Numbered from the stretch's first letter, positions 20,191-42,260 are shown. The stretch is DNA of 64,000 bases from Candidatus Omnitrophota bacterium (GCA_041650935.1 JBAZKH010000001.1:73243-137242), one strand, 5' to 3'. Numbers and translations: made by a program. The notes: generated by a model from the letters alone, not told the origin.

Positions 20191-20218
20191 AGAACGCAGT
20201 TAATTCTGGAGAGTGAAT

Positions 20219-28193: not shown

Positions 28194-29412
28194 CAAAGCG
28201 AAAACAGTTTTCTTCCTGGATAAGGCGGCGGCATGGTCGCTCTATGCAATTATCTTTACACTGCCATTCTCCAAGTCCATGGTAGAGATCTCCATAGTCA
28301 TTGGCATCCTGAGTGTAGTAGCGAAGAAGATCATTGTTAAAGAACGGTTTGTTGCGAATACTCACATAGAGATACTGCTTTATATATTTATCATGGCATC
28401 CCTTATCTCTATATTTAATACGCAGGCATCTCAGATGGGGCTTAGCATGAAGGCTTTATTCTCCAAGGTGCTTAAGTTCGCGGCGCTTTTCCTAATAGCT
28501 AAAGATGTCATAAATACGCGCGAAAAACTTAAGGATTTTCTGATAATCGCTTCGTTGTCATGCGTTATCATAGTGATAGACGCTTTTGTGCAGTATTACG
28601 TAACGCACATGGATTTTTTGCATAACTACCCGGCCTTCTTGTACAGGCCGGAGGTACAATCTGTGCGCGGTGTGCCGACGGCATCATTCCCTTTCCAAAA
28701 CGATTTTGCCGCCTGGATACTGGTATTCATCTTCCCGGCATTATGTTTAGCCATCTTTGGAAAAATCGGCCGGCGTGGGACCGTATTCGCAGTATCGGCC
28801 TTTATAGGATTGCTTTATCTCTTGATCCTGACAAAAGTCCGAGGCGCGTGGATAGCTTTTGTTATCTCTTTTATAATACTGTCGGTCGTAAAGTTGAAGA
28901 AGGCCGGATGGGCCCTACTAGTAGTTATCGTATTATTGGGTCTTGCCTATAACGGGCGGAATATCATGTCCAGGCCGAGCATAAACGACAGGTCGGTTAT
29001 GTGGAATAACGGCATGACAATCTTTATGCGTCACCCGGTAATAGGCAATGGATTGAATACTTTTTATGATAACTATATGAAGGTCCGTGAGGATAAGCAT
29101 AAAAATATCCGCGGCAGTTATGCCCATAATTGTTATCTACAAATGGCGGCGGATATAGGGTTGGCAGGGCTTGCCGCTTTCCTTCTGTTTGCGATCGCCG
29201 TCCTGGCGTCCGGTTTCCGGGCGCTCAAGGCCGCCGGGGATCCGCTATGTTATTCTTTGATCCTTGGGATAAGCCTGGGGCTTATAGCGTTTCTGGTGCA
29301 TAGCTCGGGAGATACAAACCTCTATTCGCTTCCTTTAGCGGCTCTCTTCTGGCTCTCCTCCGGTATATTATTGGCTGTGGTCAAAATTTCCGGACCAAGG
29401 AGCGGGGCTTAG
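28183..29412 (+). CDS. O-antigen ligase / Wzy-like polytopic membrane protein
   Basis: ATG 28183 (MKIDKAK) overlaps the upstream stop. ~12 TM segments with a large periplasmic loop near the C-terminus, typical of the Wzy_C / O-antigen ligase family. Confidence 0.55.
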   Translation: MKIDKAKTVFFLDKAAAWSLYAIIFTLPFSKSMVEISIVIGILSVVAKKIIVKERFVANTHIEILLYIFIMASLISIFNTQASQMGLSMKALFSKVLKFAALFLIAKDVINTREKLKDFLIIASLSCVIIVIDAFVQYYVTHMDFLHNYPAFLYRPEVQSVRGVPTASFPFQNDFAAWILVFIFPALCLAIFGKIGRRGTVFAVSAFIGLLYLLILTKVRGAWIAFVISFIILSVVKLKKAGWALLVVIVLLGLAYNGRNIMSRPSINDRSVMWNNGMTIFMRHPVIGNGLNTFYDNYMKVREDKHKNIRGSYAHNCYLQMAADIGLAGLAAFLLFAIAVLASGFRALKAAGDPLCYSLILGISLGLIAFLVHSSGDTNLYSLPLAALFWLSSGILLAVVKISGPRSGA

Positions 29413-30489
29413 GTGAAGATACTGATCATTAACCCCTTTGGGATAGGAGATGTGCTCTTTTCGACCCCACTGATAGAGGCTATAAAGAGAATATTCCCGC
29501 AGTCTTATATCGGATATATCTGTAACAGGAGGGTCTCGGAACTAATAAGGACGAATCCGCACCTGGGCAGGATATTCGTATATGAAAAAGACGATTACAG
29601 GGAGATATGGCGCCACTCCAAGATGAGATGCCTGGTAAAGATACTCGCTTTTTTGCGGGATGTCAGGAAAGAGCGGTTCGACGTATCGATAGACCTTTCG
29701 CTGAATTACCAATACAGCATGCTCTTTAAGCTGATAGGCATAAAGACGCGGGCGGGTTTCAATTACAGGAACAGGGGTAAGTTCCTTACGCACAAAATAG
29801 ATATCGAAAGTTTCGACGATAAACATGTTGTTGAGCATTATCTCGATGTTTTACGGCTTCTGGGTGTCGATCCGTCGAAGGGCATAGCCGCTCCGAAAAT
29901 ATATGTCTCCGAAGAAAGCCGGCGTTTCGGTGAAAAATTTCTGGAAGAAAATAGTATCGCTAAGACGGACCTGCTGATAGGCATGGTGCCCGGTTGCGGC
30001 GCCAGCTGGGGACGGGATGCCGGCCGCAGGCGGTGGGAGGGTAAAAATTTTGCCATTGTTGCCGATAGGCTCATCGAAAAATATAACGCGCGGGTCGTTT
30101 TGCTGGGCAATTCCAAAGAGACAAATATATGCGAAGATGTCCGGGCGGCGACAAACGACAGGGCTATAAACTATAGCGGTAAGACCTCGATCGAAAAACT
30201 TATAGGTATTCTCAGCAGGTGCAAAGTCCTGATAACGAACGAAGGCGGTATGCTTCATATGGCGGCCAGCCTCGGTATCAGGACGGTGTCGATCTTCGGC
30301 CCTGTCGATGAGACCACCTACGGTCCGTATCCCAGGAGCGCAGACCATATTATCCTAGCCAAAAAGGACATTCCATGCAGGCCGTGTTATAAGCGGTTCA
30401 AATATAACGATTGCGATGAAAGGCGCTGTCTGGAGGCTATTACCGTCGATGAAGTCTTCCGGGCCGCGGAGGGCGCGATTAGGCGATGA
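29413..30489 (+). CDS. Family 9 glycosyltransferase (heptosyltransferase-like)
   Basis: MKILIINPFGIGDVLFSTPLIEAIKR...; C-terminal GGMLHMAASLGIRTVSIFGP. Confidence 0.8.
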   Translation: MKILIINPFGIGDVLFSTPLIEAIKRIFPQSYIGYICNRRVSELIRTNPHLGRIFVYEKDDYREIWRHSKMRCLVKILAFLRDVRKERFDVSIDLSLNYQYSMLFKLIGIKTRAGFNYRNRGKFLTHKIDIESFDDKHVVEHYLDVLRLLGVDPSKGIAAPKIYVSEESRRFGEKFLEENSIAKTDLLIGMVPGCGASWGRDAGRRRWEGKNFAIVADRLIEKYNARVVLLGNSKETNICEDVRAATNDRAINYSGKTSIEKLIGILSRCKVLITNEGGMLHMAASLGIRTVSIFGPVDETTYGPYPRSADHIILAKKDIPCRPCYKRFKYNDCDERRCLEAITVDEVFRAAEGAIRR

Positions 30490-31640
30490 AGTGCGATATC
30501 GTAATACCGGTCTGGAACCAGCCGGAGACTACCAGGGAATGCATCGCGGCCATAAGAAGGACGACGCGCTATCCTTACAGGCTCATAATCATAGACAATG
30601 GGAGCGGAGACGAGACGCGGAATTACCTGAAAGAAACGGCGCGGCTATATCCGTCTGAAGTAGAGATTGTGCGGAACGATACGAATCTCGGGTACGTTAA
30701 GGCGGTGAACCAGGGGCTTAAAATTTCAACCGCGCCCTACGTATGTGTTATGAATAACGATACCATACCAGGCGCAGGATGGCTGGAGAGGCTGATAAAT
30801 TTCGCCGAGACACACCGCGGGATAGGGCTGATGAATCCTCTGTGTAACGGTCACGGCAGCCTTTCGATAGATGAGTACGCCGCGCATGTCGCACGGAACG
30901 CGGATAGATATATGGAGATGAACCAGTGCTTCGGATTTTGCACGCTCATCCGCCGCGAGGTCATAGATAAAGTGGGCTGCCTGGACGAGGTCTTCGGGAT
31001 GGGCGGTTACGACGATACGGATTATTCGATGAGGGCATGCAGGGCAGGATACCTTTGCGCGTCGGTCCACTCCGCGTATGTATATCACAAAGAGCACGTC
31101 TCTTTCAGGGCCATGGGTGCCAAAGACAGTTCTACGCTTAAAGGGCAGGCGGAATACCTTAAAAAGTGGCCGCGCCATCTGCGGGTCGGATTGACTTTTT
31201 CTGTCGATAGCAGGACCGATAGGCCTGAGATCGCTTCTGTTTTGAAGGCGATATTGTTTCTGGCCAGGGAGTGGTGCTGGGTCAATTTCTGGATCATAGG
31301 CGACGAAAAAGAGAACAGGGAGAAGATAGCGTCGGTTTCTGCCGAAATCGGCATGCCGCTGCACCAGAATATAAAATTCAATTTTATCCCGGCGGCCTTT
31401 GCGAAACTCCAGACTTTAACGAGAGTTATCGAGCGCGCCTTCGGAACGAAGAGAAGGAAGAGGTATGATGCGGTCCTTGTCGATAACGACGGTGTTGCGG
31501 CGCTCCTGAATTTCTTCTTCGTCGTGCATAATACAAGGATAATCCTGGCAAAGCCCGGATCCGGGATGACGGCGGAAGCATGCCGGATGATTGCCGAGAT
31601 ACGGAAGAGCGGGGAGAGGTTGTACGCAATTAACGCGTAG
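30486..31640 (+). CDS. GT2 domain + conserved ~130-aa C-terminal extension of unknown function (paralog A of 4)
   Basis: MKCDIVIPVWNQPETTRECIAAI...IIIDNGSGDET...DTNLGYVKAVNQG; KKWPRHLRVGLTFSVDSR extension. Confidence 0.7.
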   Translation: MKCDIVIPVWNQPETTRECIAAIRRTTRYPYRLIIIDNGSGDETRNYLKETARLYPSEVEIVRNDTNLGYVKAVNQGLKISTAPYVCVMNNDTIPGAGWLERLINFAETHRGIGLMNPLCNGHGSLSIDEYAAHVARNADRYMEMNQCFGFCTLIRREVIDKVGCLDEVFGMGGYDDTDYSMRACRAGYLCASVHSAYVYHKEHVSFRAMGAKDSSTLKGQAEYLKKWPRHLRVGLTFSVDSRTDRPEIASVLKAILFLAREWCWVNFWIIGDEKENREKIASVSAEIGMPLHQNIKFNFIPAAFAKLQTLTRVIERAFGTKRRKRYDAVLVDNDGVAALLNFFFVVHNTRIILAKPGSGMTAEACRMIAEIRKSGERLYAINA

Positions 31641-31659
31641 TTTAAGGAGGGGTTCTACA

Positions 31660-32778
31660 GTGGAGAAGGTGCTGGTTACGGGAGGGGCGGGATTCATCGG
31701 TTCCCATCTGGTTGATGAGCTCATCAACCGTAAGTATAAGGTAAAGGTCCTCGATATCTTCGATCGGCAGGTCCATGGCGGTAAGAGGCCCGGCTATTTG
31801 AATAAAAGATGCGAATATATAAAAGGGGACGTTCGCAGGCCCGGGGACCTGGAGAAAGCGGTCTCTGGCGTAAACGTGGTCTTCCACCTCGCCGCACAGG
31901 TCGGAGTGGGGCAATCGATGTATCAGATCGCGAAGTACGTTGACCATAACACTCTCGGCACGGCCATCCTTATGGAATATATTATATCGAACCGCCGCAG
32001 GCTCGGTATCAGGAAGGTAGTGGTTGCGAGTTCGATGAGCATATACGGCGAAGGCGCTTACCGGTGCAGCAAGTGCGGCCCGGCCGAACCTGTAGAGAGG
32101 GATGAAGCGGATCTGAAGAAGAGGGTCTGGGAATATTCATGCCCTAAGTGTTCCGGCCCGCTGAAACCGGCGGCGACTACGGAAGAGAAGAGTTTGCGTT
32201 CAAATTCTATTTATGCGATTTCGAAGAAGGATCAGGAAGAGATAGTGCTCAATCTGGCCAAGGCGTATAAGCTGCCTGCAGTAGCTTTAAGGTTCTTCAA
32301 CGTTTACGGGCCCAGACAATCCCTTTCCAATCCTTACACGGGGGTTTGTGCCATATTCCAGTCGCGGATAAAGAACGATAACCCTGTCCTGATATACGAA
32401 GACGGCCGCCAGACGAGGGATTTCATAAGCGTAAAGGATATAGCCGCCGCTAATATCTTTGTCATGAATTCTCCGGCGGCGGACTACCGGTATTTCAATG
32501 TCGGAACCGGGCGGGCCACCAGCGTCCTTGATATAGCCAGGACGCTCAGCCGTCTTTACGGTAAAGAACCAGACATGATAATAAAGAACGAATACAGGAT
32601 GGGCGATATCCGTCACTGTTTCGCGGATATATCGAAAATAAAGAGCATAGGCTTTAAGCCGTCCGTCAATTTCGACGACGGCATGCAAGAGATGGTGGAG
32701 TGGGGCAAACGGGCCGTTTCCGTCGACAGGGTTAATGAGGCGGATAAGCTGCTTGCGCGGATGAATTTAAAGATATAG
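31660..32778 (+). CDS. SDR sugar epimerase/dehydratase with an inserted CxxC...CxxC zinc-ribbon
   Basis: RBS AGGAGGGG then GTG gives MEKVLVTGGAGFIGSHL. Catalytic SSMSIYGE ... YAISKK. A 40-aa insert YRCSKCG...YSCPKCSG (four Cys) lies between the catalytic Ser and Tyr. Confidence 0.75.
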   Translation: MEKVLVTGGAGFIGSHLVDELINRKYKVKVLDIFDRQVHGGKRPGYLNKRCEYIKGDVRRPGDLEKAVSGVNVVFHLAAQVGVGQSMYQIAKYVDHNTLGTAILMEYIISNRRRLGIRKVVVASSMSIYGEGAYRCSKCGPAEPVERDEADLKKRVWEYSCPKCSGPLKPAATTEEKSLRSNSIYAISKKDQEEIVLNLAKAYKLPAVALRFFNVYGPRQSLSNPYTGVCAIFQSRIKNDNPVLIYEDGRQTRDFISVKDIAAANIFVMNSPAADYRYFNVGTGRATSVLDIARTLSRLYGKEPDMIIKNEYRMGDIRHCFADISKIKSIGFKPSVNFDDGMQEMVEWGKRAVSVDRVNEADKLLARMNLKI

Positions 32779-32785
32779 GTGCCGG

Positions 32786-33886
32786 GTGAACGTAAAACGT
32801 TGCGACATAATACTGCCGACGTGCGGACAGACCGCTCTTATCAAAGATTGCATAGAGAGCCTCATTAGGTCGACCAGCTACCCGGTCAGGCTTATAGCGA
32901 TCGATAACGGCGCGTCGGAAGAAGCCTCCGCCTATTTGAAAGAGATGTCGGTATCCGGCAGGCTCGATATGATCCTGATAAAGCCGCCTGAAAATTTAGG
33001 CTGGGTCATGTCGATAAATAAAGGGCTTGAACTCTCGAAAGATTCCGAATTTGTCTCTTTCCAGAACGATGATACCGTATTTGCTTCGGGCTGGATGGAA
33101 GAGCTCTCGGACATATTTGCCAAAGACCCAAAGATCGGCATAGCAAATCCGGAATGGGAACTGCCAGAAGGCCGGGACGTAGAGAACTTTGCCGCCGGGT
33201 TAAAGAAATATGCCGGCCAGACGATCGATATGGACTGGTGCAGGGGACACTGTTTTGTCGTAAAGCGTGAAGTAGTCGATAAATTAGGCGGTTTTGATCC
33301 GGCATATATTCCTGTTTACTATGACGACAGGGATTATTCTTTGAAAGCAATAGCGGCCGGCTACAGGTGCGTGAAGGCGAAGGGCGCTTTTGTCTATCAC
33401 ATCAGGAATGTGACGATGAAGAAGACGATGCGGCAGGATAAGATCTCCGACCTGATGGCGCGTAACGGCAGGATATTCTATAAGAGGTGGGGGTATCCGT
33501 TACGTCTGGTATTTACGCTTAACGATCTGGCCGGCGCGAAGGGCTTGCTTAAAAAGATGTGCATGGACCAGAATAAGGTAGTCGTGATGGCGCCAAAAGG
33601 GAGCGCGGTGCCGTATGAACATACGAATATGAAGGTGCTGGGGTTCGGGAAGGCTCTATTCAATATCTCGGCCCTTGCGTACATAATTTCTAACAGGAGC
33701 AGGAAGCATCAGAAGCGGACCGACTTTATATTTACGGATGACGGAAAATTTTATTCTCTGATAAAGCCTTTTATCCGGCTTGTCCCGGCAGATGTCGTCT
33801 TCGAGCCCGACATCGCTTCTTTGACGGCGGCGGCGGTAAGACTCACGAAAGAAAAAAAAGATAAAGACAGGAGCGCGATAGAATGA
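32786..33886 (+). CDS. GT2 domain + C-terminal extension (paralog B of 4)
   Basis: CDIILPTCGQTALIKDCIESL...IAIDNG...; YKRWGYPLRLVFTLNDL extension. Confidence 0.65.
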   Translation: MNVKRCDIILPTCGQTALIKDCIESLIRSTSYPVRLIAIDNGASEEASAYLKEMSVSGRLDMILIKPPENLGWVMSINKGLELSKDSEFVSFQNDDTVFASGWMEELSDIFAKDPKIGIANPEWELPEGRDVENFAAGLKKYAGQTIDMDWCRGHCFVVKREVVDKLGGFDPAYIPVYYDDRDYSLKAIAAGYRCVKAKGAFVYHIRNVTMKKTMRQDKISDLMARNGRIFYKRWGYPLRLVFTLNDLAGAKGLLKKMCMDQNKVVVMAPKGSAVPYEHTNMKVLGFGKALFNISALAYIISNRSRKHQKRTDFIFTDDGKFYSLIKPFIRLVPADVVFEPDIASLTAAAVRLTKEKKDKDRSAIE

Positions 33887-34722
33887 CGACCCCGCGCAAA
33901 AGAGAAAAACTGTCGGTAGTCGTTTTGACCAGGAACGAGGCGGATATCATAGTCCGGTGCCTGGAGAGCGTCGGGTGGGCGGATGAGGTCATCGTCATTG
34001 ACGACAACTCTGCTGACGGGACCGCAGGTATAGCGAAAGAATATGCGGATAAAGTCATAGTCCATCCGCTCGATAATAATTTTTCGGACCAGAGGAACTT
34101 CGGGACCGGCTGCGCTTCGGGCGATTGGATATTACAAATGGACGCGGATGAGCGCGTTACGGAAGCTTTGCGCGGGAAGATAGAGGCGGTATTGGCAGGC
34201 GGCTCTAAGATGGCGGCTTTCAGGTTCAGGAGGTCGAATAATTTTTGCGGTAAATTTCTCACCGCCGGCGGGGAGGACAGGCACAGGCCCCTGCGGCTCT
34301 TCAGGCGGGGGCGAGCGCGCTTCTCCGGCGGGAGGATACATGAAGAGCTGGCCGTAGACGGTCCCGTAGGCGAAATAGATGCCGTAATGGAACATTATAA
34401 CTTTCCGGATATAAGCCATTACGTTGCCACGCAGGATTTTTACTGCGGTCTGGAGGCCGTATCATTGCAGGAAAGCGCGGGTCTTCTGCCCAAAAAGAAA
34501 CTTCGACGGGAATTGACCATCGGTCCGGTGAAATTATTCTTCAAGATATATATGAAGAAAAGGGCTTACAAGGACGGTATGCACGGACTCGTATTCGCTA
34601 TACTTTCGGCATGGCGGAGGTTTCTCATATACGCGAAATACTGGGAAGCGAATCAGGAGAAATATCGGGATAAATACGAATTTCGAAATCCGGATTCCGA
34701 AACAATTTCGAAATCCGAATGA
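33883..34722 (+). CDS. Small family 2 glycosyltransferase (KdtX/WaaE-like), paralog of 37888..38649
   Basis: LSVVVLTRNEADIIVRCLESVGWADEVIVIDDNSADGT. The 3' end runs into an AT-rich repeat element. Confidence 0.7.
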   Translation: MTTPRKREKLSVVVLTRNEADIIVRCLESVGWADEVIVIDDNSADGTAGIAKEYADKVIVHPLDNNFSDQRNFGTGCASGDWILQMDADERVTEALRGKIEAVLAGGSKMAAFRFRRSNNFCGKFLTAGGEDRHRPLRLFRRGRARFSGGRIHEELAVDGPVGEIDAVMEHYNFPDISHYVATQDFYCGLEAVSLQESAGLLPKKKLRRELTIGPVKLFFKIYMKKRAYKDGMHGLVFAILSAWRRFLIYAKYWEANQEKYRDKYEFRNPDSETISKSE

Positions 34723-34805
34723 CCGAATGTCAAGAATATCATATTTGTAAATGTGAATTTGGTAATTCGACGTTGTGTCTAATTTCGATATTCGTATTTT
34801 GAGTT
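34660..34805. repeat. AT-rich element with terminal inverted repeats and reiterated (A)ATTTCGAAAT(C) words; related to the element at 52040-52165
   Basis: Left arm AAATACGAATTTCGAAAT versus right arm AATTTCGATATTCGTATTT (near-perfect reverse complement). Internal AATTTCGAAATCC occurs twice, plus CCGAAACAA. Confidence 0.45.
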
Positions 34806-34827
34806 TTTTTGTAAAAGTGAGGCATCG

Positions 34828-36537
34828 ATGAATATTCTTGGTTTCGGAGGTCCGGGGTTTTTGCATGACCCGGCCGCGGCCATAGTGATAGATGGTAAGG
34901 TTACGGCTGCCGTCGAAGAAGAGAGGCTCATAAGGGAAAAGCACGCCGTCGGTAAACCGTGCCTTAAGTCGATAGAATTTTGTCTAAAAGCCTCCGGCCT
35001 TCGTCCTGAGGATATCGATGCCGTTGCTTTTCCGTGGTCCTTCGAGGCGTTTAACCGCAAAAAATGGCTTTACGCATTCAATACCATCCTCTCCGAACCT
35101 TCGCGCGCATATAAAACGATAGCTAGATCCGCCAGGCAGTCCGCCGGCACAAAGAAGGCGGTTTTTCAGATGCTGGACCATTTTGGTATCAGGGTGCCTC
35201 CGGAGAAGGTATTCTTTGTGGAACATCATATGGCGCATGCCGCGAGCGCTTACCTCCTGGCGGGTTTTAACGAAGCGGCCGTTATGAGTATTGACGGAAG
35301 CGGTGAATTTACCTCGACCCTCTTTGCCGAAGTATCGGGAGGGCGGATGAGGAAGATAAAAGAGATAGATATACCGGACTCCCTTGGCAGATTCTACTCC
35401 ACGATGACGGCATATTTGGGTTTCGATCCGAACGACGGTGAATATAAACTTATGGGAATGGCGCCGTACGGCGACGCGTCCAAAGCCGACCTTTCGGATA
35501 TCATCTCGTGCGATGGCCGCACATTCAAAACGAACCCCGAATACGTATGGCCCATCCGCTCCCGCAGATACCAAAAGGAAGCGATGATCCCGCGGAAGCT
35601 AGTCGATCGTTTTGGGCCGCCGAGGCAGGGGGATGGGCTCGCGGCGCCGTATATACATATAGCGGCCGCGACGCAGAAGGCCTTCGAGGAGACGGTGCTA
35701 AAGCTGATGGATTTCCATCTGGGCGGCACCTTGCGGCGGACAGGAAATCTTGCCTATGCCGGAGGGTGCGCGCTCAACGTTTCATTGAACCGTAAACTTG
35801 TCGAAAATCCGCTCGTGAAGAATATGTTCGTCCAGCCTGCATCGAATGACGCCGGCACGTCGCTTGGCGCCGCGGTATTCGCGTCCAGCATGATGGGCGA
35901 TAGCATCTTGCCGATGAAGGACGTTTATCTCGGCCCGGGATACGCTAACGACGAGGTAGCCTCCGCGCTAAAGAGGCCCGGGCTTAAATATTCCCGCTCA
36001 AACGATATAGAGAAAGAGGTAGCCCTGCTTCTTGCGAACGGCGATGTCGTCGGATGGTTCCAGGGCAGGATGGAGTTCGGTCCCCGCGCGCTCGGCAACA
36101 GGTCGATACTCGGCAATCCCACGATACCCGGGACGAGCGACCGCATAAATGAGATGGTGAAGTTCAGGGAGAAGTGGCGGCCGTTCTGCCCGTCGATACT
36201 GCGTGAATACGCAAAAGATATTATCGGCAGGGATATGGACGCGCCGTTCATGACGCTCAGTTTCGCAGTTACGAATAAGTGGAAGGACCGCATACCGGAA
36301 GTCGTTCATGTGGACGGTTCGATGCGGCCGCAGACCGTGAGCCAGGGCGCTAACCCGAGGTTCTACCGGCTGATAAGGCATTTTTTCGAAAAAACCGGCG
36401 TGCCGGTCCTGATAAATACGTCTCTCAACAGGAGGGGTGAACCGATGGTCGCGAGTCCCAAAGATGCCGTGGATATGTATCTGGGCTCAGGGCTCGACTA
36501 TCTGGCGATCGGCGACTATTTGGTTAGCAGGAATTAA
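34828..36537 (+). CDS. Carbamoyltransferase (NodU/CmcH family)
   Basis: MNILGFGGPGFLHDPAAAIVIDGKVTAAVEEERLIREKH and HHMAHAASAY are diagnostic of the NodU/CmcH N-domain. ~570 aa with a C-terminal YrdC/Kae1-like half. Confidence 0.85.
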   Translation: MNILGFGGPGFLHDPAAAIVIDGKVTAAVEEERLIREKHAVGKPCLKSIEFCLKASGLRPEDIDAVAFPWSFEAFNRKKWLYAFNTILSEPSRAYKTIARSARQSAGTKKAVFQMLDHFGIRVPPEKVFFVEHHMAHAASAYLLAGFNEAAVMSIDGSGEFTSTLFAEVSGGRMRKIKEIDIPDSLGRFYSTMTAYLGFDPNDGEYKLMGMAPYGDASKADLSDIISCDGRTFKTNPEYVWPIRSRRYQKEAMIPRKLVDRFGPPRQGDGLAAPYIHIAAATQKAFEETVLKLMDFHLGGTLRRTGNLAYAGGCALNVSLNRKLVENPLVKNMFVQPASNDAGTSLGAAVFASSMMGDSILPMKDVYLGPGYANDEVASALKRPGLKYSRSNDIEKEVALLLANGDVVGWFQGRMEFGPRALGNRSILGNPTIPGTSDRINEMVKFREKWRPFCPSILREYAKDIIGRDMDAPFMTLSFAVTNKWKDRIPEVVHVDGSMRPQTVSQGANPRFYRLIRHFFEKTGVPVLINTSLNRRGEPMVASPKDAVDMYLGSGLDYLAIGDYLVSRN

Positions 36538-36554
36538 CTGGAAAAGAGAGCTAT

Positions 36555-37571
36555 ATGAACTGCGATATTGTTATACCTGTCTGGAATCAGCTTGCCCTTA
36601 CGCGGGACTGCATAGATTCCATCTTCAAGAATACCGCGGATATTGCATTCAAGCTGATCGTAATCGATAATGCCAGTAATGAGGAGACGAAGTCATATCT
36701 TGCAGACCTCCGGAACCAGAAACCCGGGCAGGTCATCGTCGTATGGAACGCGGCCAATCTTGGTTTCGTGAAGGCGGTTAATCAGGGTATAGCCGCTTCC
36801 AGCGCGCCGTACGTCTGCCTGTTAAATAACGATACGCTCGTTACGCGGAATTGGCTTAAAGAGATGATCGCGGTCGCGGAATCCGCCGACGATATCGGGC
36901 TCGTGAACCCGTCGAGCAATAATCTGGGGCAGGCGCCTGCGCGGGGTGAGCCTATCGAGCTTTATGCCGGGAAAATAGCTAAAGAGTCCGGCGGTTTTAT
37001 CGAACTGGGCGCGGCGATAGGGTTCTGTATGCTCATCAAGAGACGGCTCTTCGAAAAGATAGGGGTCTTCGACGAAATATACGGTATGGGGAATTTCGAC
37101 GATACGGACTTTTCGCGGAGGGCGGTGCAGGCGGGCTACCGGTGCGTAAGGGCCTGCGGCGCCTATGTCTATCACAGGCAGAATACGTCTTTCGATAAGG
37201 TCAGGACCTTCGACGAAGATTTTAAGCGCAACCGCGAGATATATGAGTTCAGGTGGGGACGGCCGCGGAGGATCGCGTATATCCTCGACAAAGTCGATAC
37301 CAACAATTTAAGACGGATAAACGGCGATGCGATGACGCTTGCGAGGAGCGGCAACTGGATATGGTATTTCATAAAGGATCCTATAGCCGTTCCGAAACAT
37401 TCCAATATTATCATTAAATATTTCCAGGGACAGTGGTTCTACCCAAAAGTCATATTCACTATATTAAAGAAAAAGAAGAGATTTAACGAGATAAATATCG
37501 GCGCCGAACGGGTGGGCGGGTTTTTATCGGGCCTGACTTTCGTCCATAAAGCGAAGATAAAATTTTTCTGA
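36555..37571 (+). CDS. GT2 domain + C-terminal extension (paralog C of 4)
   Basis: MNCDIVIPVWNQLALTRDCIDSI...VIDNASNEET...ANLGFVKAVNQG; FRWGRPRRIAYILDKV extension. Confidence 0.7.
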   Translation: MNCDIVIPVWNQLALTRDCIDSIFKNTADIAFKLIVIDNASNEETKSYLADLRNQKPGQVIVVWNAANLGFVKAVNQGIAASSAPYVCLLNNDTLVTRNWLKEMIAVAESADDIGLVNPSSNNLGQAPARGEPIELYAGKIAKESGGFIELGAAIGFCMLIKRRLFEKIGVFDEIYGMGNFDDTDFSRRAVQAGYRCVRACGAYVYHRQNTSFDKVRTFDEDFKRNREIYEFRWGRPRRIAYILDKVDTNNLRRINGDAMTLARSGNWIWYFIKDPIAVPKHSNIIIKYFQGQWFYPKVIFTILKKKKRFNEINIGAERVGGFLSGLTFVHKAKIKFF

Positions 37572-37587
37572 ACAGGTAGAGTCAGTT

Positions 37588-37887
37588 TAAAGGTAGTCCC
37601 TCGGCGCGGGAGTGAGAGCGTTGCACCTCGGGATGATTTGCAGGAGTGAGATAAGGGCAAATCACGGTACAATTTGTCTAAAGTTAGATACAGATTAAGG
37701 TAGTCCCTCGGCGCGGGAGTTAGATTGTTGCGCCTCGGGATGATTTGCAAGAGTGAGATAAGGGCAAATCACGGGACGATTTGTCTAAAGTTAGATATAA
37801 ATTAAGGTAGTCCCTCGCTGCCGGAGTTAGACAGTGGCAGCTCGGGACGATTTGTCTAAAGTTAGATAATAACAAATCGGAGACATA
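37588..37887 (+). promoter_or_regulatory. Structured 5' leader: three tandem 107-nt units (module A + module B/B') ending at the SD of the GT2 gene
   Basis: GTCCC at 37596, 37703 and 37810, an exact 107-nt period. Inner stems GGCGCG/TGCACC (imperfect), GGCGC/GCGCC and GCTGCC/GGCAGC covary. Loops carry GGAGTTAGA. B' is GATTTGCA-[rgagtgagataaggg]-CAAATC. The final B is GATTTGT...ACAAATC, then GGAG, then ATG 37888. Confidence 0.6.
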
Positions 37888-38649
37888 ATGGAGAAGATAC
37901 CGGTATCGGTAGTGGTCATAACAAAGAACGAAGAAAATAATATAGCAGATTGCTTAAAGAGCGTCTCGTGGGCGGACGAGATCGTGGTGCTCGATGACGA
38001 TTCTACCGACAAGACCGTAACCATAGCCAGGCAATATACCGACAGGGTCTCCGCGCGCAAGATGGACATAGAGGGGCGGCACAGGAACTACGCGTACGGC
38101 CTGGCTAAAAATAAGTGGGTCCTGTCGCTCGATGCCGATGAACGCGCAAGCGCCGAGTTGGAAAACGAATTGCGCGGGCTCTTCAACGGCGGGATGAAAG
38201 CGGCGGCCTATTCGATACCTATAAAGACTTTCATAGGAAAACGCTGGATAAGATACGGCGGATGGTATCCCGCCCCTAAGGTGCGGCTCTTCGACAAAGG
38301 GCGCTTCAAGTATGAAGAGGCCGAGGTCCATCCCAGGGCATTTATAGACGGTACATGCGGCCATCTTACGAAGGATATAGTCCATTATTCATACAGGGAT
38401 TTTCACGATTTCTTCCAGAGTCTCAACAACCAGACGACGTTAGAGGCAAAAAAATGGTTCAAAGAACGCCGAAAGATAGGGTTTTTGAAGATGTACCGGA
38501 AGGCCATAAGCAGATTCTTGAAGGCCTATCTCCAGAAGGCCGGTTTCAGGGACGGGCTCCTGGGGTTCGTCATATCTTATGGCGGCGGCCTGTATCAATT
38601 CATGAGCTACGTAAAATACCGCGAGATGCTTGATAATGAAGGCGAATAG
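37888..38649 (+). CDS. Small family 2 glycosyltransferase (KdtX/WaaE-like)
   Basis: VSVVVITKNEENNIADCLKSVSWADEIVVLDDDSTDKT. Preceded by three tandem structured leader repeats and GGAG. Confidence 0.7.
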   Translation: MEKIPVSVVVITKNEENNIADCLKSVSWADEIVVLDDDSTDKTVTIARQYTDRVSARKMDIEGRHRNYAYGLAKNKWVLSLDADERASAELENELRGLFNGGMKAAAYSIPIKTFIGKRWIRYGGWYPAPKVRLFDKGRFKYEEAEVHPRAFIDGTCGHLTKDIVHYSYRDFHDFFQSLNNQTTLEAKKWFKERRKIGFLKMYRKAISRFLKAYLQKAGFRDGLLGFVISYGGGLYQFMSYVKYREMLDNEGE

Positions 38650-39718
38650 CTGCGACATAATAATTCCGGTCTGGAACGAGCCGGATGTTACCAGGGAGTG
38701 CATAGATTCTATAGCCCGGCATACGCATTATCCTTACAGGCTGGTCGTGATAGACAACGCGAGCGCGGAACCCGCGCGGAGTTATCTGGCGGGCCTGAAA
38801 CGCCGGGGCGATATGACAGTGGAGCTCATAAGGAACGAAACGAATCTGGGTTTCGTGAAGGCCGTGAACCAGGGGATAAGGTTTTCGGACGCGCCTTATA
38901 TATGTATCATGAATAACGATACCATCGCCACGGACGGCTGGCTGGAAGCGATGATAAAGGCGATGGAGACCAACTCCGGCGTCGGTCTGATAAACCCGAC
39001 GAGCAATACATTCAGCCACTATCCGGACGATAACGAAACGATAGATGAATATGCCGCCAGGCTGCGTCTTTTTAGCGATGCCATACAGGAGCTGCATTGC
39101 TGCCGCTTCTTCTGCACCGTTATAAAACGCGAGATCCTGGAAAAACTGGGGCCGCTGGACGAGATCTACCATCTCGGCTATTTCGACGACACCGACTATT
39201 GCAAGAGGGCCCAGGCCCTGGGCTACAGGACCGCCCGCGCGAAGAGCGCATACGTCTACCATAAAGAGAATACGACTTTCAAAAAGCTCGCCGACAATAG
39301 CGCCCTATTCAAGGCAAACGAAAATATATTCCTCAAGCGATGGGGCCGGCACGTAAGGGTGGGCTACTTTGTAGATAAAGTAAGATCGCGGGAGCGCATA
39401 GAGGCTATCGCCATAGATGTGGCAAGGCGCGGCCACCAGGTATTCATCTTTATAAAAAAAGGTCTGGAGTGGCCGGTGGGTCTGGACCACTACAATATAG
39501 TAAAGGTAGAGGTCAGCCCGCGCCTCTTCGGCATCGTCTCGCTCTATAAGATACTTAAAAGAAAGAAGAAGAAGGCCCTGGAGATACTTTTGACGGACAA
39601 TCCTCTATTCGGCGCTGTACTGAATATTTTAAAGTTCCTTCACGGGGCCGATCTGTTTGTAAGCGCCGGAAAAGAGGAACTTGTGGATAGGCTTAAAGAG
39701 AGGTCGAGTGTATTCTGA
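38636..39718 (+). CDS. GT2 domain + C-terminal extension (paralog D of 4)
   Basis: ATG 38636 gives MKANSCDIIIPVWNEPDVTRECIDSI...VIDNASAEP...TNLGFVKAVNQG; LKRWGRHVRVGYFVDKV extension. Confidence 0.7.
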   Translation: MKANSCDIIIPVWNEPDVTRECIDSIARHTHYPYRLVVIDNASAEPARSYLAGLKRRGDMTVELIRNETNLGFVKAVNQGIRFSDAPYICIMNNDTIATDGWLEAMIKAMETNSGVGLINPTSNTFSHYPDDNETIDEYAARLRLFSDAIQELHCCRFFCTVIKREILEKLGPLDEIYHLGYFDDTDYCKRAQALGYRTARAKSAYVYHKENTTFKKLADNSALFKANENIFLKRWGRHVRVGYFVDKVRSRERIEAIAIDVARRGHQVFIFIKKGLEWPVGLDHYNIVKVEVSPRLFGIVSLYKILKRKKKKALEILLTDNPLFGAVLNILKFLHGADLFVSAGKEELVDRLKERSSVF

Positions 39719-39779: not shown

Positions 39780-40481
39780 ATGTCTGGCGATATAAGCTTA
39801 TCGGTTGTTATGCCGGTTTATAATGAAAAAGAGTACGTCCTGAAGATCATCGACAGGGTCCTTGCGCTCGATATGGTAAAAGAGCTCATAGCGGTCGACG
39901 ACTATTCGACGGACGGGACGCGCGAGCTTCTCGAGAGCACGAAGTTCGACGGGCGGGTCAAGTGCCTTTATCACGACAAGAACATGGGGAAAGGCGCCGC
40001 CCTGCGCACAGGATTTGCGCAGACGACAAAAGATGTGGTCGTGGTGCAGGACGCGGACCTGGAATACGATCCGGACGAATTCAAAGAGATGATAAAACCC
40101 ATAGCGGCGGGCCAGGCGGACGTCGTATACGGCTCGAGGCTCTCCGGCGGCAGGCCGCAGAGGGTATATATGTTCTGGCACAGGATAGGGAACGACTTCC
40201 TATCATTTGTCACGAATCTTCTGTATAATTCCACCCTCACCGACATGGAGACCTGCTACAAGATGTTCAGGAAGGGCGTTATAGATAATATCAGGATAAA
40301 GTCAAACGATTTTTCCGTAGAGCCGGAGCTGACGGCCAAGATACTGAAAGATAAGCGGCTAAGGGTCTACGAGGTGCCGATCTCTTATTACGGCAGGACG
40401 TATGCCGAGGGTAAGAAGATATCGTGGCGGCACGGTTTCGGCGCCATCTGGGCGCTTTTAAAGTACAGGTTCGTAAATTAA
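39780..40481 (+). CDS. GT2 polyprenyl-phosphate glycosyltransferase-like (DPM1/GtrB-like, short form)
   Basis: LSVVMPVYNEKEYV...AVDDYSTDGT...VQDADLEYDP. Confidence 0.7.
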   Translation: MSGDISLSVVMPVYNEKEYVLKIIDRVLALDMVKELIAVDDYSTDGTRELLESTKFDGRVKCLYHDKNMGKGAALRTGFAQTTKDVVVVQDADLEYDPDEFKEMIKPIAAGQADVVYGSRLSGGRPQRVYMFWHRIGNDFLSFVTNLLYNSTLTDMETCYKMFRKGVIDNIRIKSNDFSVEPELTAKILKDKRLRVYEVPISYYGRTYAEGKKISWRHGFGAIWALLKYRFVN

Positions 40482-40482
40482 G

Positions 40483-41862
40483 ATGAAGATACTTTTGTTA
40501 AAACCGTTCAACAAGAGCGACCATATCCAGCCGTCGCTGGGCCTCGGGTACCTGGCGGAGTCCGTCCGCAGGGACCATGAGGTGATGATACTCGACTGTA
40601 TCAAGGATAAAATCAGCGTTGATAAATTGGAAGGTGTGCTGAAGCGCTGCAGGCCGGACGTTCTCGGTATGCAGTGCTATACCTTCGACCTGAATTTCAT
40701 CGATGCCGCGCTGGTGTCCGCGAAGGCATTCGATAAAAATATCGTTACCGTAACGGGCGGTCCGCATCCCTCGGCAGCCGCGGCGGAGATGATGGATATG
40801 TTCCGGGGCCGGCTAGACTTTGCTTTCTCAGGCGAGGCGGAAATAGGATTCCCGAAACTTTTGGATTGCCTGAAGAACGGCGGCAGGAATTTTGACGGTG
40901 TGCCGGGGCTTATGTGGAGAGAGGGCGCGGTATTGAAGTCGAATCCGAAGACGGTCTCTGAGGACCTTGACAATATCCCGATGCCCGCCTGGGACCTTAT
41001 CCGTCCCGAGACGTACCCGGAGTCACAGCACGGAGCTTTCTTCAAACAGTTCCCGATAGCGCCCATCATGATAACGCGGGGATGCCCTTACCCGTGCACC
41101 TTCTGCGCCGGGGGAACGGTCTCCGGAAAGAAGGTCAGGCACAGGTCCATCGATAATGTGTTAAAGGAGCTCATCTACCTTAATAAGGAGCGCGGGATCA
41201 AAGAATTTCATGTCATCGATGATAATTTCACCATGGATATGGGTTACGCCAAAGAATTCCTGCGCAGGCTGAAAGCCTTAAACCTCGGCATGACCTGGGC
41301 GGTCCCGAACGGCGTCCGGATGGATGCTCTCGACGACGAACTTCTGAAGCTTATGAAGGAGACGGGGTTGTATATGATTTCTTTAGGGATAGAATCCGGC
41401 TCCGACAAGGTCCTGCGCGACATGAAGAAGAGCCTTACGATATCTAAGATAAAGGAATGCGTGAAAAGGATAAACGACGGCGGTATAGACGTCTCCGGCT
41501 TCTTCATACTCGGATTTCCCGGAGAGACCGAGGAGTCGATAAGAGATACCATACGTCTTTCGCTTGAACTGAAGCTCGTCAGGGCCAACTTCTTCACATA
41601 TCTTCCTTTCCCGGGGTCCGAAAGCTATGAGCGATTGCGCGCCGAAAATAAACTTAAAGGGATAGACTGGAACAACTTCTATTTCATGACCGCCTCCTAT
41701 GCGCCCGACGGAATGACAAGGGCGCGGCTCAAGAATCTGCAGCGTTTCGCTTTCGCCAGGTTCTATCTCCGCCCGCGTATCATCGCGTATAACATTATGT
41801 CTATACAGTCGTTTAGACATTTTCTGTTTCTATTCAAGAGGTTCTTCCGATGGCTCGCTTAA
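40483..41862 (+). CDS. B12-binding domain radical SAM enzyme (class B), paralog 3
   Basis: MKILLLKP B12-binding-like N-domain; TRGCPYPCTFCAG. Confidence 0.8.
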   Translation: MKILLLKPFNKSDHIQPSLGLGYLAESVRRDHEVMILDCIKDKISVDKLEGVLKRCRPDVLGMQCYTFDLNFIDAALVSAKAFDKNIVTVTGGPHPSAAAAEMMDMFRGRLDFAFSGEAEIGFPKLLDCLKNGGRNFDGVPGLMWREGAVLKSNPKTVSEDLDNIPMPAWDLIRPETYPESQHGAFFKQFPIAPIMITRGCPYPCTFCAGGTVSGKKVRHRSIDNVLKELIYLNKERGIKEFHVIDDNFTMDMGYAKEFLRRLKALNLGMTWAVPNGVRMDALDDELLKLMKETGLYMISLGIESGSDKVLRDMKKSLTISKIKECVKRINDGGIDVSGFFILGFPGETEESIRDTIRLSLELKLVRANFFTYLPFPGSESYERLRAENKLKGIDWNNFYFMTASYAPDGMTRARLKNLQRFAFARFYLRPRIIAYNIMSIQSFRHFLFLFKRFFRWLA

Positions 41863-42254: not shown

Positions 42255-42260
42255 TATAAC

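What the first reader, a model, noticed from the sequence alone, without database searches (positions are those of the whole stretch)
30486..39718. Four-fold expansion of a GT2 + unknown C-terminal domain architecture within 9 kb
The ORFs at 30486, 32786, 36555 and 38636 all begin (M)xCDI(V/I)IPVWNQ...T(R/K)(E/D)CI(D/A)SI and contain IIDN(A/G)S, NLGFVKAVNQG and FGMGxYDDTDY. Each continues after a K(K/R)WGR(H/P)xR(V/I) hinge into a ~120-130-aa domain with no motif I can assign. The N-domains resemble rhamnosyl/hexosyltransferases of the WbbL type. Four paralogs in one locus imply addition of four related residues, or a modular or phase-variable repertoire. The common extension may be a membrane or acceptor-targeting module.
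Basis: seen in the sequence. Interest (0 to 1): 0.6.

Follow-up and report, generated by a model that had tools for sequence, protein, structure and literature searches.

The report
Four old glycosyltransferase paralogs, shared basic tail
Four related sugar-adding enzymes in a cell-envelope glycan gene cluster of an uncultured Omnitrophota bacterium all carry the same small, strongly basic extra domain, found almost only in this phylum, that looks like half of a different kind of glycosyltransferase and probably docks the enzyme onto its membrane-bound substrate.

Summary
Four + strand genes (A 30486-31640, B 32786-33886, C 36555-37571, D 38636-39718) encode family-2 glycosyltransferases that are 29-41% identical. 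Each has a 100-155 aa C-terminal domain ("X") after a WG(R) hinge.

It is not a recent or phase-variable expansion. The window comes from a Candidatus Omnitrophota genome. A, B, C and D each form their own orthologous clade, kept in synteny across the phylum. Copy number is 4 in 11 of 24 complete loci, otherwise 3, 2 or 1. A and B are fused in six loci.

X is neither a GT2 lid nor a Pfam domain. AlphaFold gives a confident separate Rossmann-like alpha/beta domain. Its best solved-structure matches are GT-B enzymes (BshA, GT4). Of 35 X sequences, 8 weakly hit Pfam N-terminal GT4 profiles, in register. X has pI about 10 and a conserved polybasic loop. A profile search of 1.84 billion proteins found it in only 134 clusters, nearly always behind this GT2.

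Best reading: four sequential inverting transferases build a conserved lipid-linked envelope oligosaccharide, probably LPS-core-like. Each is docked to the membrane or acceptor by a vestigial half of a GT-B enzyme. Donor, acceptor and X function are inferred. Moderately interesting; a new variant of a known kind.

The parts
30486..31640 (+). Paralog A (384 aa): GT2 catalytic domain (about residues 1-230) plus X domain (about 231-384, window ~31176-31640). X carries a ~17-aa insertion between strand 2 and the invariant His. The start overlaps the GT9 stop by 4 bp.
   Evidence: ORF; PF00535 E 1.1e-27; alignment; A clade in 28 loci
32786..33886 (+). Paralog B (366 aa, GTG start): the most divergent GT2 plus X (X about residues 238-366, window ~33497-33886). 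The stop overlaps the start of the short GT2a by 4 bp. This B subtype travels with epimerase Epi2 and the carbamoyltransferase.
   Evidence: B clade with three subclades; linkage to CarbT/Epi2 in L003, L010, L027, L036, L038, L039 and L049
36555..37571 (+). Paralog C (338 aa): GT2 plus the shortest X (about residues 237-338, window ~37263-37571; lacks the last helix). It is the most widely conserved member and is often the only copy, sitting next to GT9.
   Evidence: 758 homologs, named ones all Omnitrophota
38636..39718 (+). Paralog D (360 aa from ATG 38636; alternative TTG 38630): GT2 plus X (about residues 239-360, window ~39350-39718). Sister clade of C. In some genomes it is relocated between the UDG and PriA genes.
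   Evidence: AlphaFold2 model pLDDT 94.5, pTM 0.90
29413..30489 (+). GT9 (heptosyltransferase-family) gene. It lies immediately upstream of the first GT2+X gene in nearly every locus.
   Evidence: PF01075 E 2e-28; synteny
27159..29412 (+). WecA/MraY-type polyprenyl-phosphate HexNAc-1-P transferase (27159-28193) and a Wzy_C (O-antigen ligase/polymerase-like) membrane protein (28144-29412). Both are conserved upstream partners.
   Evidence: PF00953 and PF04932; synteny
31591..32778 (+). NAD-dependent sugar epimerase/dehydratase (Epi2), inserted between A and B in this lineage.
   Evidence: PF01370 E 1e-49; absent at this position in L001/L002
33883..36537 (+). Short GT2a (33883-34722, 279 aa, no X domain) and a NodU/CmcH-type carbamoyltransferase (34828-36537).
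   Evidence: co-occurrence with the B subtype
37888..38649 (+). Short GT2b (253 aa, no X domain). Highly conserved (70-89% identity across loci). Its stop overlaps the start of D.
39780..44203 (+). Conserved downstream module: polyprenyl-phosphate glycosyltransferase-like GT2 (39780-40481), B12-radical SAM (40483-41862), 134-aa protein (41850-42254), PMT_2/ArnT-like GT-C (42261-43646) and GmhB-like HAD phosphatase (43643-44203).
   Evidence: synteny
37590..37869 (+). Intergenic tandem array of 107-bp units (2.6 copies) between C and GT2b. Each unit carries a ~40-nt hairpin. It is not part of the enzymes, but it lies inside the flagged interval.

Best explanation
The four genes are old, functionally distinct members of one Omnitrophota-specific glycosyltransferase family.

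Each is a soluble inverting GT-A (GT2) enzyme, predicted to be active because the IDN, NNDT, DDTDY and VYH motifs are conserved. Each is rigidly joined to a ~100-150 aa, strongly basic Rossmann-like domain, X. X most resembles, and probably descends from, the first two-thirds of the N-terminal (acceptor- and membrane-binding) half of a GT4-type GT-B glycosyltransferase. It has no donor-binding half.

The genes sit in a translationally coupled operon that is conserved across the phylum. The operon order is WecA-like initiating transferase, Wzy_C ligase-like protein, GT9 heptosyltransferase-like enzyme, the GT2+X genes, two short GT2s, a polyprenyl-P sugar synthase with an ArnT-like GT-C, and a GmhB-like phosphatase.

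The most likely mechanism is as follows. At the cytoplasmic face of the inner membrane, A, B, C and D each add one specific residue in sequence to a lipid-anchored oligosaccharide. This is most likely an LPS-core-like glycan, or alternatively an undecaprenyl-PP-linked glycan. The X domain uses its polybasic loop and adjacent hydrophobic helix to hold the catalytic domain on the anionic membrane and lipid-linked acceptor.

Shown here: paralogy, orthologous lineages, synteny, the fold of X, its basic charge and its narrow distribution. Inferred: GT4 ancestry of X, its docking role, and the identity of the glycan, donors and acceptors.
For: **Family and activity**
- All four pass PF00535. D37, N90/D92/T93, D176/D177/D179 and H201 (A numbering) are invariant.
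- The AlphaFold2 model of D matches GT-A enzymes (K4CP, GalNAc-Ts, PcManGT, CgT) over the N-domain only, with TM to query <=0.53.

**Old paralogs**
- The NJ tree gives separate A, B, C and D clades, each filled with orthologues from many species.
- The gene order GT9-A-B-C-sGT2-sGT2-D-DPM is kept in genomes where D is only 47-57% identical.
- Of 24 loci that span the region, 11 have four copies, 7 three, 2 two and 4 one.
- A and B are fused as GT2-X-GT2-X proteins of 716-768 aa in six loci.
- The closest relative, L003, has the same four genes.

**The X domain**
- It is a separate domain with order b-a-b-b-a-b-a-b-a: pLDDT 94.5 and pTM 0.90 in the full-length model, pLDDT 91 when modelled alone.
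- The best Foldseek PDB hits are the GT4 enzymes BshA (6d9t, E 5e-4, TMq 0.62, rmsd 3.3 A over 117 columns) and 7qsg, 3mbo and 7mi0, plus GT1 UGTs.
- 8/35, 6/35 and 2/35 X sequences hit the three Pfam GT4 N-terminal-domain models (best E 2.4e-4). No other family is hit by more than 2 sequences.
- These hits are collinear: X residues 16-112 map to profile positions 1-102 of 158.
- X has pI ~10 and net charge +9 to +11 in all four clades, against pI ~7 for the GT2 domain. A K/R-rich loop (KRKKKK, KKKKR, TKRRKR, RSRKHQKR) sits at the same position.
- Only 134 clusters out of 1.84e9 contain X. All have it at residues ~230-360 of the same architecture, are fragments, or are longer fusions with methyltransferase, GT9 or a second GT2.

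**Context**
- Pfam assignments of the neighbours and 4-14 bp start/stop overlaps.

**Precedent**
- Alg14, the N-half of a split GT-B, carries the acceptor site and membrane association (PMC8993221).
- N-domains of GT4 enzymes bind anionic lipid through basic and hydrophobic helices (PMC12022483).
Against: **GT4 ancestry is not proven**
- All Pfam hits are far below gathering scores (13-17 bits against 28-30).
- Window paralog D itself gives no Pfam hit.
- hhalign of the X profile against GT4, GT9 and GT28 alignments built from these loci gave probabilities <7%.
- A broad X HMM did not preferentially pick up GT-B proteins.
- Foldseek also lists CoaB, methylglyoxal synthase and other generic Rossmann-like folds at similar scores.

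**The docking role is untested**
- No coordinates were available to check where the basic loop lies relative to the active site.

**The glycan is not identified**
- No lipid A or Kdo genes lie in the window, so 'LPS core' rests only on GT9, Wzy_C and the GmhB-like genes.
- Nothing identifies the donors or the order of action.

**Other roles for X remain open**
- A basic Rossmann-like domain could equally bind a nucleotide, a phosphorylated sugar or a partner protein.
Confidence: 0.55

Rival explanations
1. X is an oligomerisation or scaffold domain. It assembles the GT2+X enzymes, and perhaps GT9, into a multi-enzyme complex that channels the growing glycan. Its basic charge would be incidental or would serve partner binding.
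For: A and B occur as a single GT2-X-GT2-X polypeptide in six loci, and X is also found fused to GT9 (P0236) and to a second GT2 (P0176, P0221, P0245). These fusions suggest the enzymes work in physical proximity. C-terminal oligomerisation domains are known in other GT2 enzymes (TarS/TarP; my own knowledge). pTM 0.90 shows X is rigidly packed on the catalytic domain.
Against: A net charge of +9 to +11 on every copy would make X-X contacts electrostatically unfavourable. Fusions indicate functional linkage, not necessarily X-mediated contact. No multimer prediction could be run.
Confidence: 0.2
2. X is a ligand-binding or second catalytic domain. It could be a Rossmann-like module that binds a nucleotide or phosphorylated intermediate. 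It could also be the acceptor half of a split GT-B that pairs in trans with a separately encoded donor half, as Alg14 pairs with Alg13.
For: X has a Rossmann-like fold. One His (DHxDIR in D) and one Lys are invariant, and a second Lys is nearly invariant, across all four clades. Split GT-B enzymes exist.
Against: There is no glycine-rich or other nucleotide-binding loop after strand 1. No orphan GT-B C-terminal half is conserved in the locus. The Alg14 Pfam family is not among even the weak hits. C lacks the last helix, and A tolerates a 17-aa insertion.
Confidence: 0.12
3. The four copies are a recent local amplification, or a phase-variable or modular repertoire that generates surface-glycan diversity.
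For: Copy number does differ between Omnitrophota lineages (1 to 4). The B position is occupied by three different subclades that correlate with accessory genes such as the carbamoyltransferase and Epi2.
Against: The paralogs are only 29-41% identical. Each has orthologues at 45-82% identity in other species. The order is syntenic. There are no simple-sequence or homopolymer tracts in or before the genes. The nearest relative has the identical set (L003). The variation is between deep lineages, not within populations.
Confidence: 0.03
4. The tail is just the ordinary C-terminal part (lid or helices) of a COG1216-type GT2, and the 'domain' is an artefact of Pfam model boundaries.
For: Pfam PF13641 extends to about residue 220. 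Many GT2s have poorly modelled C-termini.
Against: The model shows an independent five-stranded alpha/beta domain after the last GT-A helix. GT-A structures align only to the N-domain. The tail profile is absent from the billions of other GT2s.
Confidence: 0.02

Closest known systems
COG1216/PF00535-type inverting GT2 glycosyltransferases (solved examples: SpsA 1qg8, streptococcal GalT1/CgT 5hea, PcManGT 6yv7)
   Same: The N-terminal 230 residues share the GT-A fold, the nucleotide-binding IDN motif, an NDT (DxD-type) motif, a DDTDY acidic motif and a distal His.
   Different: None of these has the X domain. Sequence identity is 13-19%. No NCBIfam equivalog reaches its cutoff, so donor and acceptor cannot be transferred by homology.
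N-terminal domain of GT4 (GT-B) enzymes, e.g. BshA (6d9t, 3mbo), PimA, WaaG
   Same: X superposes on BshA with TM 0.62 and rmsd 3.3 A. It gives in-register weak hits to PF13439, PF13579 and PF13477. Like membrane-associated GT4 N-domains, it carries a basic and hydrophobic surface element.
   Different: X is only about two-thirds of such a domain (five strands). It lacks the Gly-rich loop after strand 1, has no partner C-terminal donor domain, and follows a GT-A enzyme. Homology is below every curated threshold.
Alg14/EpsE: the stand-alone N-terminal half of a split GT-B (MurG-like) enzyme
   Same: It is a precedent for half a GT-B fold existing on its own and providing acceptor binding and membrane recruitment (PMC8993221).
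   Different: Alg14 works with Alg13, the donor half, to form one active site. Here no donor half is present and catalysis is supplied by a GT-A domain. The Alg14 Pfam family is not hit.
LPS core (waa/rfa) clusters, and LPS-core GT-A enzymes with basic C-terminal membrane-association regions (e.g. Neisseria LgtC; from my own knowledge)
   Same: The operon combines GT9, a Wzy_C/WaaL-like protein, a GmhB-like phosphatase and several soluble GTs. A basic C-terminal appendage on a GT-A enzyme acting on a membrane glycolipid is a known solution.
   Different: LgtC is GT8, and its tail is a pair of helices rather than a Rossmann-like domain. No Kdo or lipid A genes are in the window. A WecA-like gene in the same operon would also fit an undecaprenyl-PP-linked glycan.

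Membership tests
Glycosyltransferase family 2 (Pfam PF00535, GT-A fold) | Sequence match above the curated gathering score | tested here: met
   A 97.5, B 51.8, C 85.2 and D 94.9 bits against a cutoff of 23.3
Glycosyltransferase family 2 (Pfam PF00535, GT-A fold) | GT-A fold with a DxD-type metal/nucleotide motif and an acidic catalytic-base region | tested here: met
   The model of D matches GT-A structures. IDN, N-D-T and DD(T/R)D plus His are invariant in all four and in 44 homologs. Catalytic activity itself was not tested.
WbbL-type rhamnosyltransferase (TIGR01556) | Score above the family's curated cutoff | tested here: not met
   33.5, 38.4 and 40.9 bits for A, C and D against a cutoff of 200.55; B has no hit
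GT4 N-terminal domain (PF13439 / PF13579 / PF13477) for the X domain | Sequence match above the gathering score | tested here: not met
   Best 13-17 bits against 28-30. 8, 6 and 2 of 35 sequences hit with best E 2.4e-4, collinear with profile positions 1-102. This is suggestive of remote homology only.
GT4 N-terminal domain (PF13439 / PF13579 / PF13477) for the X domain | Structural superposition on the N-terminal Rossmann-like half of solved GT-B enzymes | tested here: inconclusive
Complete GT-B glycosyltransferase | Two Rossmann-like halves with a donor-binding C-terminal domain | tested here: not met
   The protein ends 100-155 aa after the hinge. Only one small alpha/beta domain is present.
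Alg14/EpsE-type split GT-B half | Match to the Alg14 family and a conserved neighbouring Alg13-like donor half | tested here: not met
   No Alg14 hit even at E<=10. No orphan GT-B C-half in the conserved locus.
LPS core-oligosaccharide (waa-type) locus | GT9 heptosyltransferase-family gene, WaaL-like (Wzy_C) gene and a heptose-pathway gene clustered with core GTs | tested here: met
   PF01075, PF04932 and a GmhB-like HAD (PF13242 + PNK3P) are in one conserved operon. The assignments are at domain level only.
LPS core-oligosaccharide (waa-type) locus | Acceptor is Kdo-lipid A; product is ligated to lipid A-core | not testable with these tools
   No Kdo or lipid A genes in the 64-kb window. The rest of the genome was not examined. 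Chemistry is needed.
Phase-variable / recently amplified glycosyltransferase repertoire | Simple-sequence repeats in or before the genes, near-identical copies, strain-level copy variation | tested here: not met
   No such repeats. Copies are 29-41% identical. The same four genes are present in the closest relative and in distant species.

The most novel reading that the evidence does not exclude
X is a true evolutionary remnant of a GT-B acceptor half that has been grafted onto a GT-A catalytic domain. That would create a hybrid GT-A/half-GT-B enzyme class not described before. The four-member set, together with GT9 and the two short GT2s, would specify a conserved envelope oligosaccharide that is a signature of the phylum Omnitrophota. 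That glycan would be a candidate determinant of the surface biology of these ultra-small, possibly host-dependent cells.
Probability: 0.3. Interest if true: 0.6.

Novelty: new variant of a known kind. Interest (0 to 1): 0.42.

Why it matters
Glycosyltransferases of the GT-A and GT-B superfamilies are normally treated as separate solutions. If a GT-A enzyme borrows the acceptor- and membrane-binding half of a GT-B enzyme, that is a new way to build peripheral-membrane specificity, and a new domain family to curate. It is currently unannotated: every source calls these proteins just 'glycosyltransferase family 2 protein'.

The conserved operon gives a concrete, testable handle on the envelope glycan of Omnitrophota. 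This is a widespread uncultured phylum, and no description of this locus or its glycan turned up in two targeted full-text searches. The lineage-specific pattern of 1, 2, 3 or 4 GT2+X genes predicts stepwise differences in that glycan.

The finding also corrects the first impression of a 'four-fold expansion'. These are ancient, individually conserved genes, not a hypervariable locus.

Tried and rejected
**Searches on X that found nothing or were unavailable**
- A sequence search of the X profile against all PDB chains found only spurious de novo TIM-barrel repeats.
- hhalign of X against GT4, GT9, GT28, epimerase, HAD and other profiles built from the fetched loci gave all probabilities <7%.
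- A broad X HMM run against all 1488 locus ORFs with filters off showed no enrichment of GT-B proteins among weak hits.

**Whole-protein and annotation checks**
- Foldseek with the whole model found no solved two-domain relative. The long alignments to K4CP and heparosan synthase have rmsd 15-21 A and are not meaningful for X.
- NCBIfam gave no equivalog for any of the seven GT2s.

**Ideas considered and dropped**
- P0238 (GT2-X followed by a Glyco_trans_1_2 domain) as a possible ancestral full GT2-GT-B fusion. Rejected because about 370 unrelated residues separate X from that domain, and the N-part is simply a C-class enzyme.
- Recent duplication or phase variation. Rejected.

**Literature**
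- Searches on Omnitrophota plus glycosyltransferase or LPS found no description of this family or locus.

Full report

Yes. The mechanical ORF list shows four + strand ORFs at the stated places:
- A: 30486-31640, 384 aa.
- B: 32786-33886, 366 aa, GTG start.
- C: 36555-37571, 338 aa.
- D: 38630/38636-39718. The public copy of this protein is 360 aa, which favours the ATG at 38636.

A four-way alignment gives 29, 38 and 41% identity to A and about 50 invariant columns. All four pass the Pfam GT2 model PF00535 (E 1e-13 to 1e-27). PF13641 extends the match to about residue 220, and nothing matches beyond that.

The tails after the W-G/P-R hinge are 154, 129, 102 and 122 aa.

Taken alone, the tails are collinear but weakly similar: C-D 32%, A-D 22%, B-D 26%. 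Their homology is confirmed independently. An HMM of the tail, dominated by D orthologues, finds the A-, B- and C-type genes of unrelated genomes (L001, L002) at the same position, with E 8e-6 to 4e-19.

**2. Where does it come from, and what surrounds it?**

D and C are 100% identical to proteins of a Candidatus Omnitrophota MAG on a 710-kb contig. Every named homolog is from Omnitrophota.

The whole stretch from about 1 to 46 kb is + strand glycan biosynthesis. The first 24 kb look like a variable O-antigen-type cluster: RmlD, GT2, GT4, methyltransferases, UDP-GlcNAc 2-epimerase, asparagine synthase-like and B12-radical SAM genes.

The flagged genes lie in the following series:
- GT4
- epimerase
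- WecA/MraY-type transferase
- Wzy_C (O-antigen-ligase-like) protein
- GT9 (heptosyltransferase family)
- **A**
- epimerase
- **B**
- short GT2
- carbamoyltransferase
- **C**
- short GT2
- **D**
- polyprenyl-phosphate glycosyltransferase-like GT2
- B12-radical SAM
- 134-aa protein
- PMT_2/ArnT-like GT-C
- GmhB-like HAD phosphatase
- epimerase
- MGDG-synthase-like GT28
- UDG
- PriA

Several starts overlap the preceding stop by 4-14 bp: GT9/A, B/short GT2 and short GT2/D. This indicates one translationally coupled operon. Downstream of 49 kb the genes are housekeeping.

**3. Is it an 'expansion'?**

Not in the sense of something recent. I fetched the neighbourhoods of two distant D orthologues (47% and 57% identity) and 72 further loci from species-representative genomes. 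They show the same operon. The order is epimerase, WecA, Wzy_C, GT9, three GT2+X genes, two short GT2s, a fourth GT2+X gene, then the same downstream genes through UDG and PriA.

A neighbour-joining tree of 139 family members resolves separate A, B, C and D clades. B has three subclades, and C and D are sisters. Each clade is populated by orthologues from many species.

Among 24 loci that span the region, 11 carry four GT2+X domains, 7 three (A, B, C), 2 two (A, C) and 4 one. For at least one of the 'three' cases, D is simply relocated between UDG and PriA on the same contig (L044/L017). C, next to GT9, is the most widely kept member.

In six loci A and B are one polypeptide, GT2-X-GT2-X, of 716-768 aa. 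The window's closest relative (L003) has the identical arrangement, including the epimerase and carbamoyltransferase insertions.

No simple-sequence or homopolymer tracts occur in or before the genes. The 'phase-variable or modular repertoire' reading is therefore rejected. 'Four different steps' is the natural reading, and the A-B fusions argue that the enzymes act on the same substrate.

**4. What is the C-terminal domain (X)?**

The AlphaFold2 model of D, built with 47 homologs, is confident: pLDDT 94.5 and pTM 0.90. It shows a GT-A domain to about residue 236, followed by an independent alpha/beta domain with order b-a-b-b-a-b-a-b-a. Modelled alone, X gives the same fold (pLDDT 91).

The whole model matches solved GT-A enzymes only over the N-domain, with TM to query <=0.53. 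No solved structure has both domains. X is therefore not a GT2 'lid'.

Structural and sequence signals point to the N-terminal half of a GT4 enzyme:
- X alone finds the GT4 enzyme BshA as best solved match (6d9t, E 5e-4, TM 0.62, rmsd 3.3 A over 117 columns).
- Other GT-B enzymes follow (7qsg, 3mbo, 7mi0, plant UGTs), among generic Rossmann-like folds such as CoaB and methylglyoxal synthase.
- At sequence level no curated model reaches threshold, and the PDB profile search is empty.
- When 35 X sequences are scanned one by one, the only families hit by more than two members are the three Pfam models of the N-terminal half of GT4 enzymes: PF13439 in 8 sequences (best E 2.4e-4), PF13579 in 6, and PF13477 in 2.
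- These alignments are in register: X residues ~16-112 map to profile positions 1-102 of 158.
- The order of elements also fits what I know of GT4 N-domains: helix ending in ..ARxGH, strand QVxIF, loop, strand, helix, strand LTDN, helix, strand. This is my own knowledge, not a test.

Against this, profile-profile comparison with GT4, GT9 and GT28 alignments made from these loci found nothing. I therefore rate 'vestigial GT4 N-half' as likely, about 0.6, but not shown.

Two further properties are solid:
- **Charge.** X is strongly basic in all four clades (pI ~10, net +9 to +11, against pI ~7 for the catalytic domain). A K/R-rich loop sits at the same place, between the second helix and the fourth strand, following a hydrophobic helix (FFGxxSxYKILKRKKKK in D).
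- **Invariant residues.** One His (DHxDIR in D), the hinge Trp and one Lys are invariant across clades, and a second Lys is nearly invariant.
- **Distribution.** X is very narrowly distributed. An exhaustive HMMER search of 1.84 billion cluster representatives found 134 proteins at E<=1e-3. All have X at residues ~230-360 of the same architecture, are fragments that begin inside the GT2 domain, or are longer fusions. The fusions add a methyltransferase, a GT9, a second GT2(+X) or other C-terminal domains.

**5. How it most likely works**

Shown:
- Four predicted-active inverting GT-A enzymes, with IDN, NNDT, DD(T/R)D and VYH conserved.
- Each is rigidly coupled to a basic Rossmann-like domain.
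- They are encoded in a conserved operon with a polyprenyl-phosphate initiating transferase, a ligase-like Wzy_C protein and a GT9.

Inferred:
- The enzymes act in sequence at the cytoplasmic face of the inner membrane on a lipid-anchored oligosaccharide.
- X, like the N-terminal halves of membrane-associated GT-B enzymes and like Alg14, supplies membrane and acceptor docking through its basic loop and adjacent hydrophobic helix. [quoted passage not shown] GT4 N-domain helices rich in hydrophobic and Lys/Arg residues contact anionic lipid (PMC12022483).

The combination of GT9, Wzy_C and a GmhB-like phosphatase suggests an LPS-core-type glycan. However, no Kdo or lipid A genes are in the window, and the WecA-like gene would equally fit an undecaprenyl-PP-linked glycan. 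Donor sugars cannot be read. The 'WbbL-type rhamnosyltransferase' label fails its curated cutoff (33-41 bits against 200).

The B position varies between three subclades. The subclade in this window travels with a carbamoyltransferase and an extra epimerase. This predicts lineage-specific variants of one residue of the glycan.

**6. Rivals**

- X as an oligomerisation or scaffold domain is favoured by the fusions and disfavoured by the uniform strong positive charge.
- X as a ligand-binding or trans-pairing half-enzyme fits the invariant His and Lys. It lacks a nucleotide loop, a donor-half partner and any Alg14 signal.
- Recent amplification or phase variation is contradicted by the data.
- An ordinary GT2 C-terminus is contradicted by the data.

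**7. Comparison with what is known, and novelty**

The catalytic domains are members of GT2; the membership tests were met. X is not a member of any curated family. It works like, and probably derives from, a GT-B N-terminal half, but it fails the gathering thresholds.

I know of no described GT-A enzyme carrying an orphan GT-B N-half. The literature searches on Omnitrophota glycosyltransferases and LPS returned nothing on this family or locus. All sources annotate the proteins only as 'glycosyltransferase family 2 protein'.

I file it as a new variant of a known kind: an ordinary enzyme class with an undescribed, phylum-restricted accessory domain, in a phylum-conserved envelope-glycan operon. 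Interest is moderate (0.42). It is not a surprise at the level of mechanism. It is a clean, testable domain-architecture novelty and a useful marker locus for Omnitrophota envelope biology.

**8. Side observation**

The 316-bp gap between C and the next gene is filled by 2.6 tandem copies of a 107-bp unit. The conserved 66-nt core of the unit folds into a hairpin, and three of its base pairs show compensatory changes between copies.

A covariance model finds the same element twice more at 23689-23825, after the GT4-DUF218 gene. It also finds it once in the closest relative at the equivalent of the A/epimerase junction (L003:3407-3472), and weakly at 58159-58229. It finds nothing in the other 72 loci. 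There is no Rfam match.

It looks like a young, lineage-restricted intergenic element on the coding strand of the glycan operon. It could be a processing, terminator or antiterminator hairpin, or a small mobile repeat. Its function is untested.

Noticed in passing
window 37590-37869 (also 23689-23825, weak 58159-58229; L003:3407-3472): An intergenic 107-bp tandem repeat (2.6 copies) lies between paralog C and the short GT2b. Its 66-nt core forms a hairpin, and 3 base pairs show compensatory changes between copies. Two more copies lie after the GT4-DUF218 gene, and one lies in the closest relative at the A/epimerase junction. The element is absent from the 72 other Omnitrophota loci and has no Rfam match. 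It may be a processing, terminator or antiterminator element, or a small mobile repeat, specific to this lineage's glycan operon.
   Followed up: partly
L032:3335-5593, L050:1046-3352, L051:1735-3939, L068:732-2882, L070:9977-12217, L071:3710-5920: In six Omnitrophota loci, paralogs A and B are fused into one 716-768 aa protein with the domain order GT2-X-GT2-X. Other family members carry C-terminal methyltransferase (P0166, P0198, P0218), GT9 (P0236) or further GT2 domains (P0176, P0221, P0245).
   Followed up: partly
L015, L016, L017, L019, L031 (D-type gene between the UDG and PriA genes): In several lineages the D-type gene has left the operon and sits between the uracil-DNA glycosylase and PriA genes. 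In L015, L017 and L019 a B12-radical-SAM-like ORF lies immediately upstream of it. The rest of the locus keeps its order.
   Followed up: no
window 31591-32778: The epimerase/dehydratase between A and B carries an inserted Cys-rich segment (CSKCG...CPKCSG) that looks like a zinc ribbon inside the Rossmann-fold enzyme. The listed ORF start (TTG 31591) overlaps the end of A, and the true start is probably about 24 codons downstream.
   Followed up: no
window 33883-34722 and 37888-38649: Two short GT2 proteins (279 and 253 aa), with N-termini of the VVVITKNEE...W(A)DE(I/V)(I/V)V(I/L)DD type, are conserved partners of the GT2+X genes (up to 89% identity across species). From memory they resemble WaaE/KdtX-type LPS-core glucosyltransferases. 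No NCBIfam model confirms this.
   Followed up: no
window 39780-43646: A conserved trio follows paralog D: a polyprenyl-phosphate glycosyltransferase-like GT2, a 134-aa protein with one N-terminal hydrophobic helix and no Pfam match, and a PMT_2/ArnT-like GT-C, with a B12-radical SAM enzyme interleaved. This suggests a periplasmic glycan- or lipid-modification branch analogous to ArnC/ArnT or GtrB/GtrC.
   Followed up: no
window 13507-14961, 20213-21679, 40483-41862: Three B12-binding radical SAM enzymes lie within one 46-kb glycan region. Relatives carry further copies at varying positions in the operon. They may carry out C-methylation or other radical tailoring of the sugars.
   Followed up: no
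loci L007, L009, L021, L024, L028, L030 and others; L047: Several public MAGs titled 'uncultured Planctomycetia bacterium', and one titled 'Spirochaetes bacterium', carry members of this family. Most of the 'Planctomycetia' ones also carry the characteristic Omnitrophota operon. The 'Spirochaetes' contig (L047, 7.7 kb) showed only a single C-type gene, so no synteny could be assessed there. Their deposited taxonomy is probably wrong or outdated.
   Followed up: no
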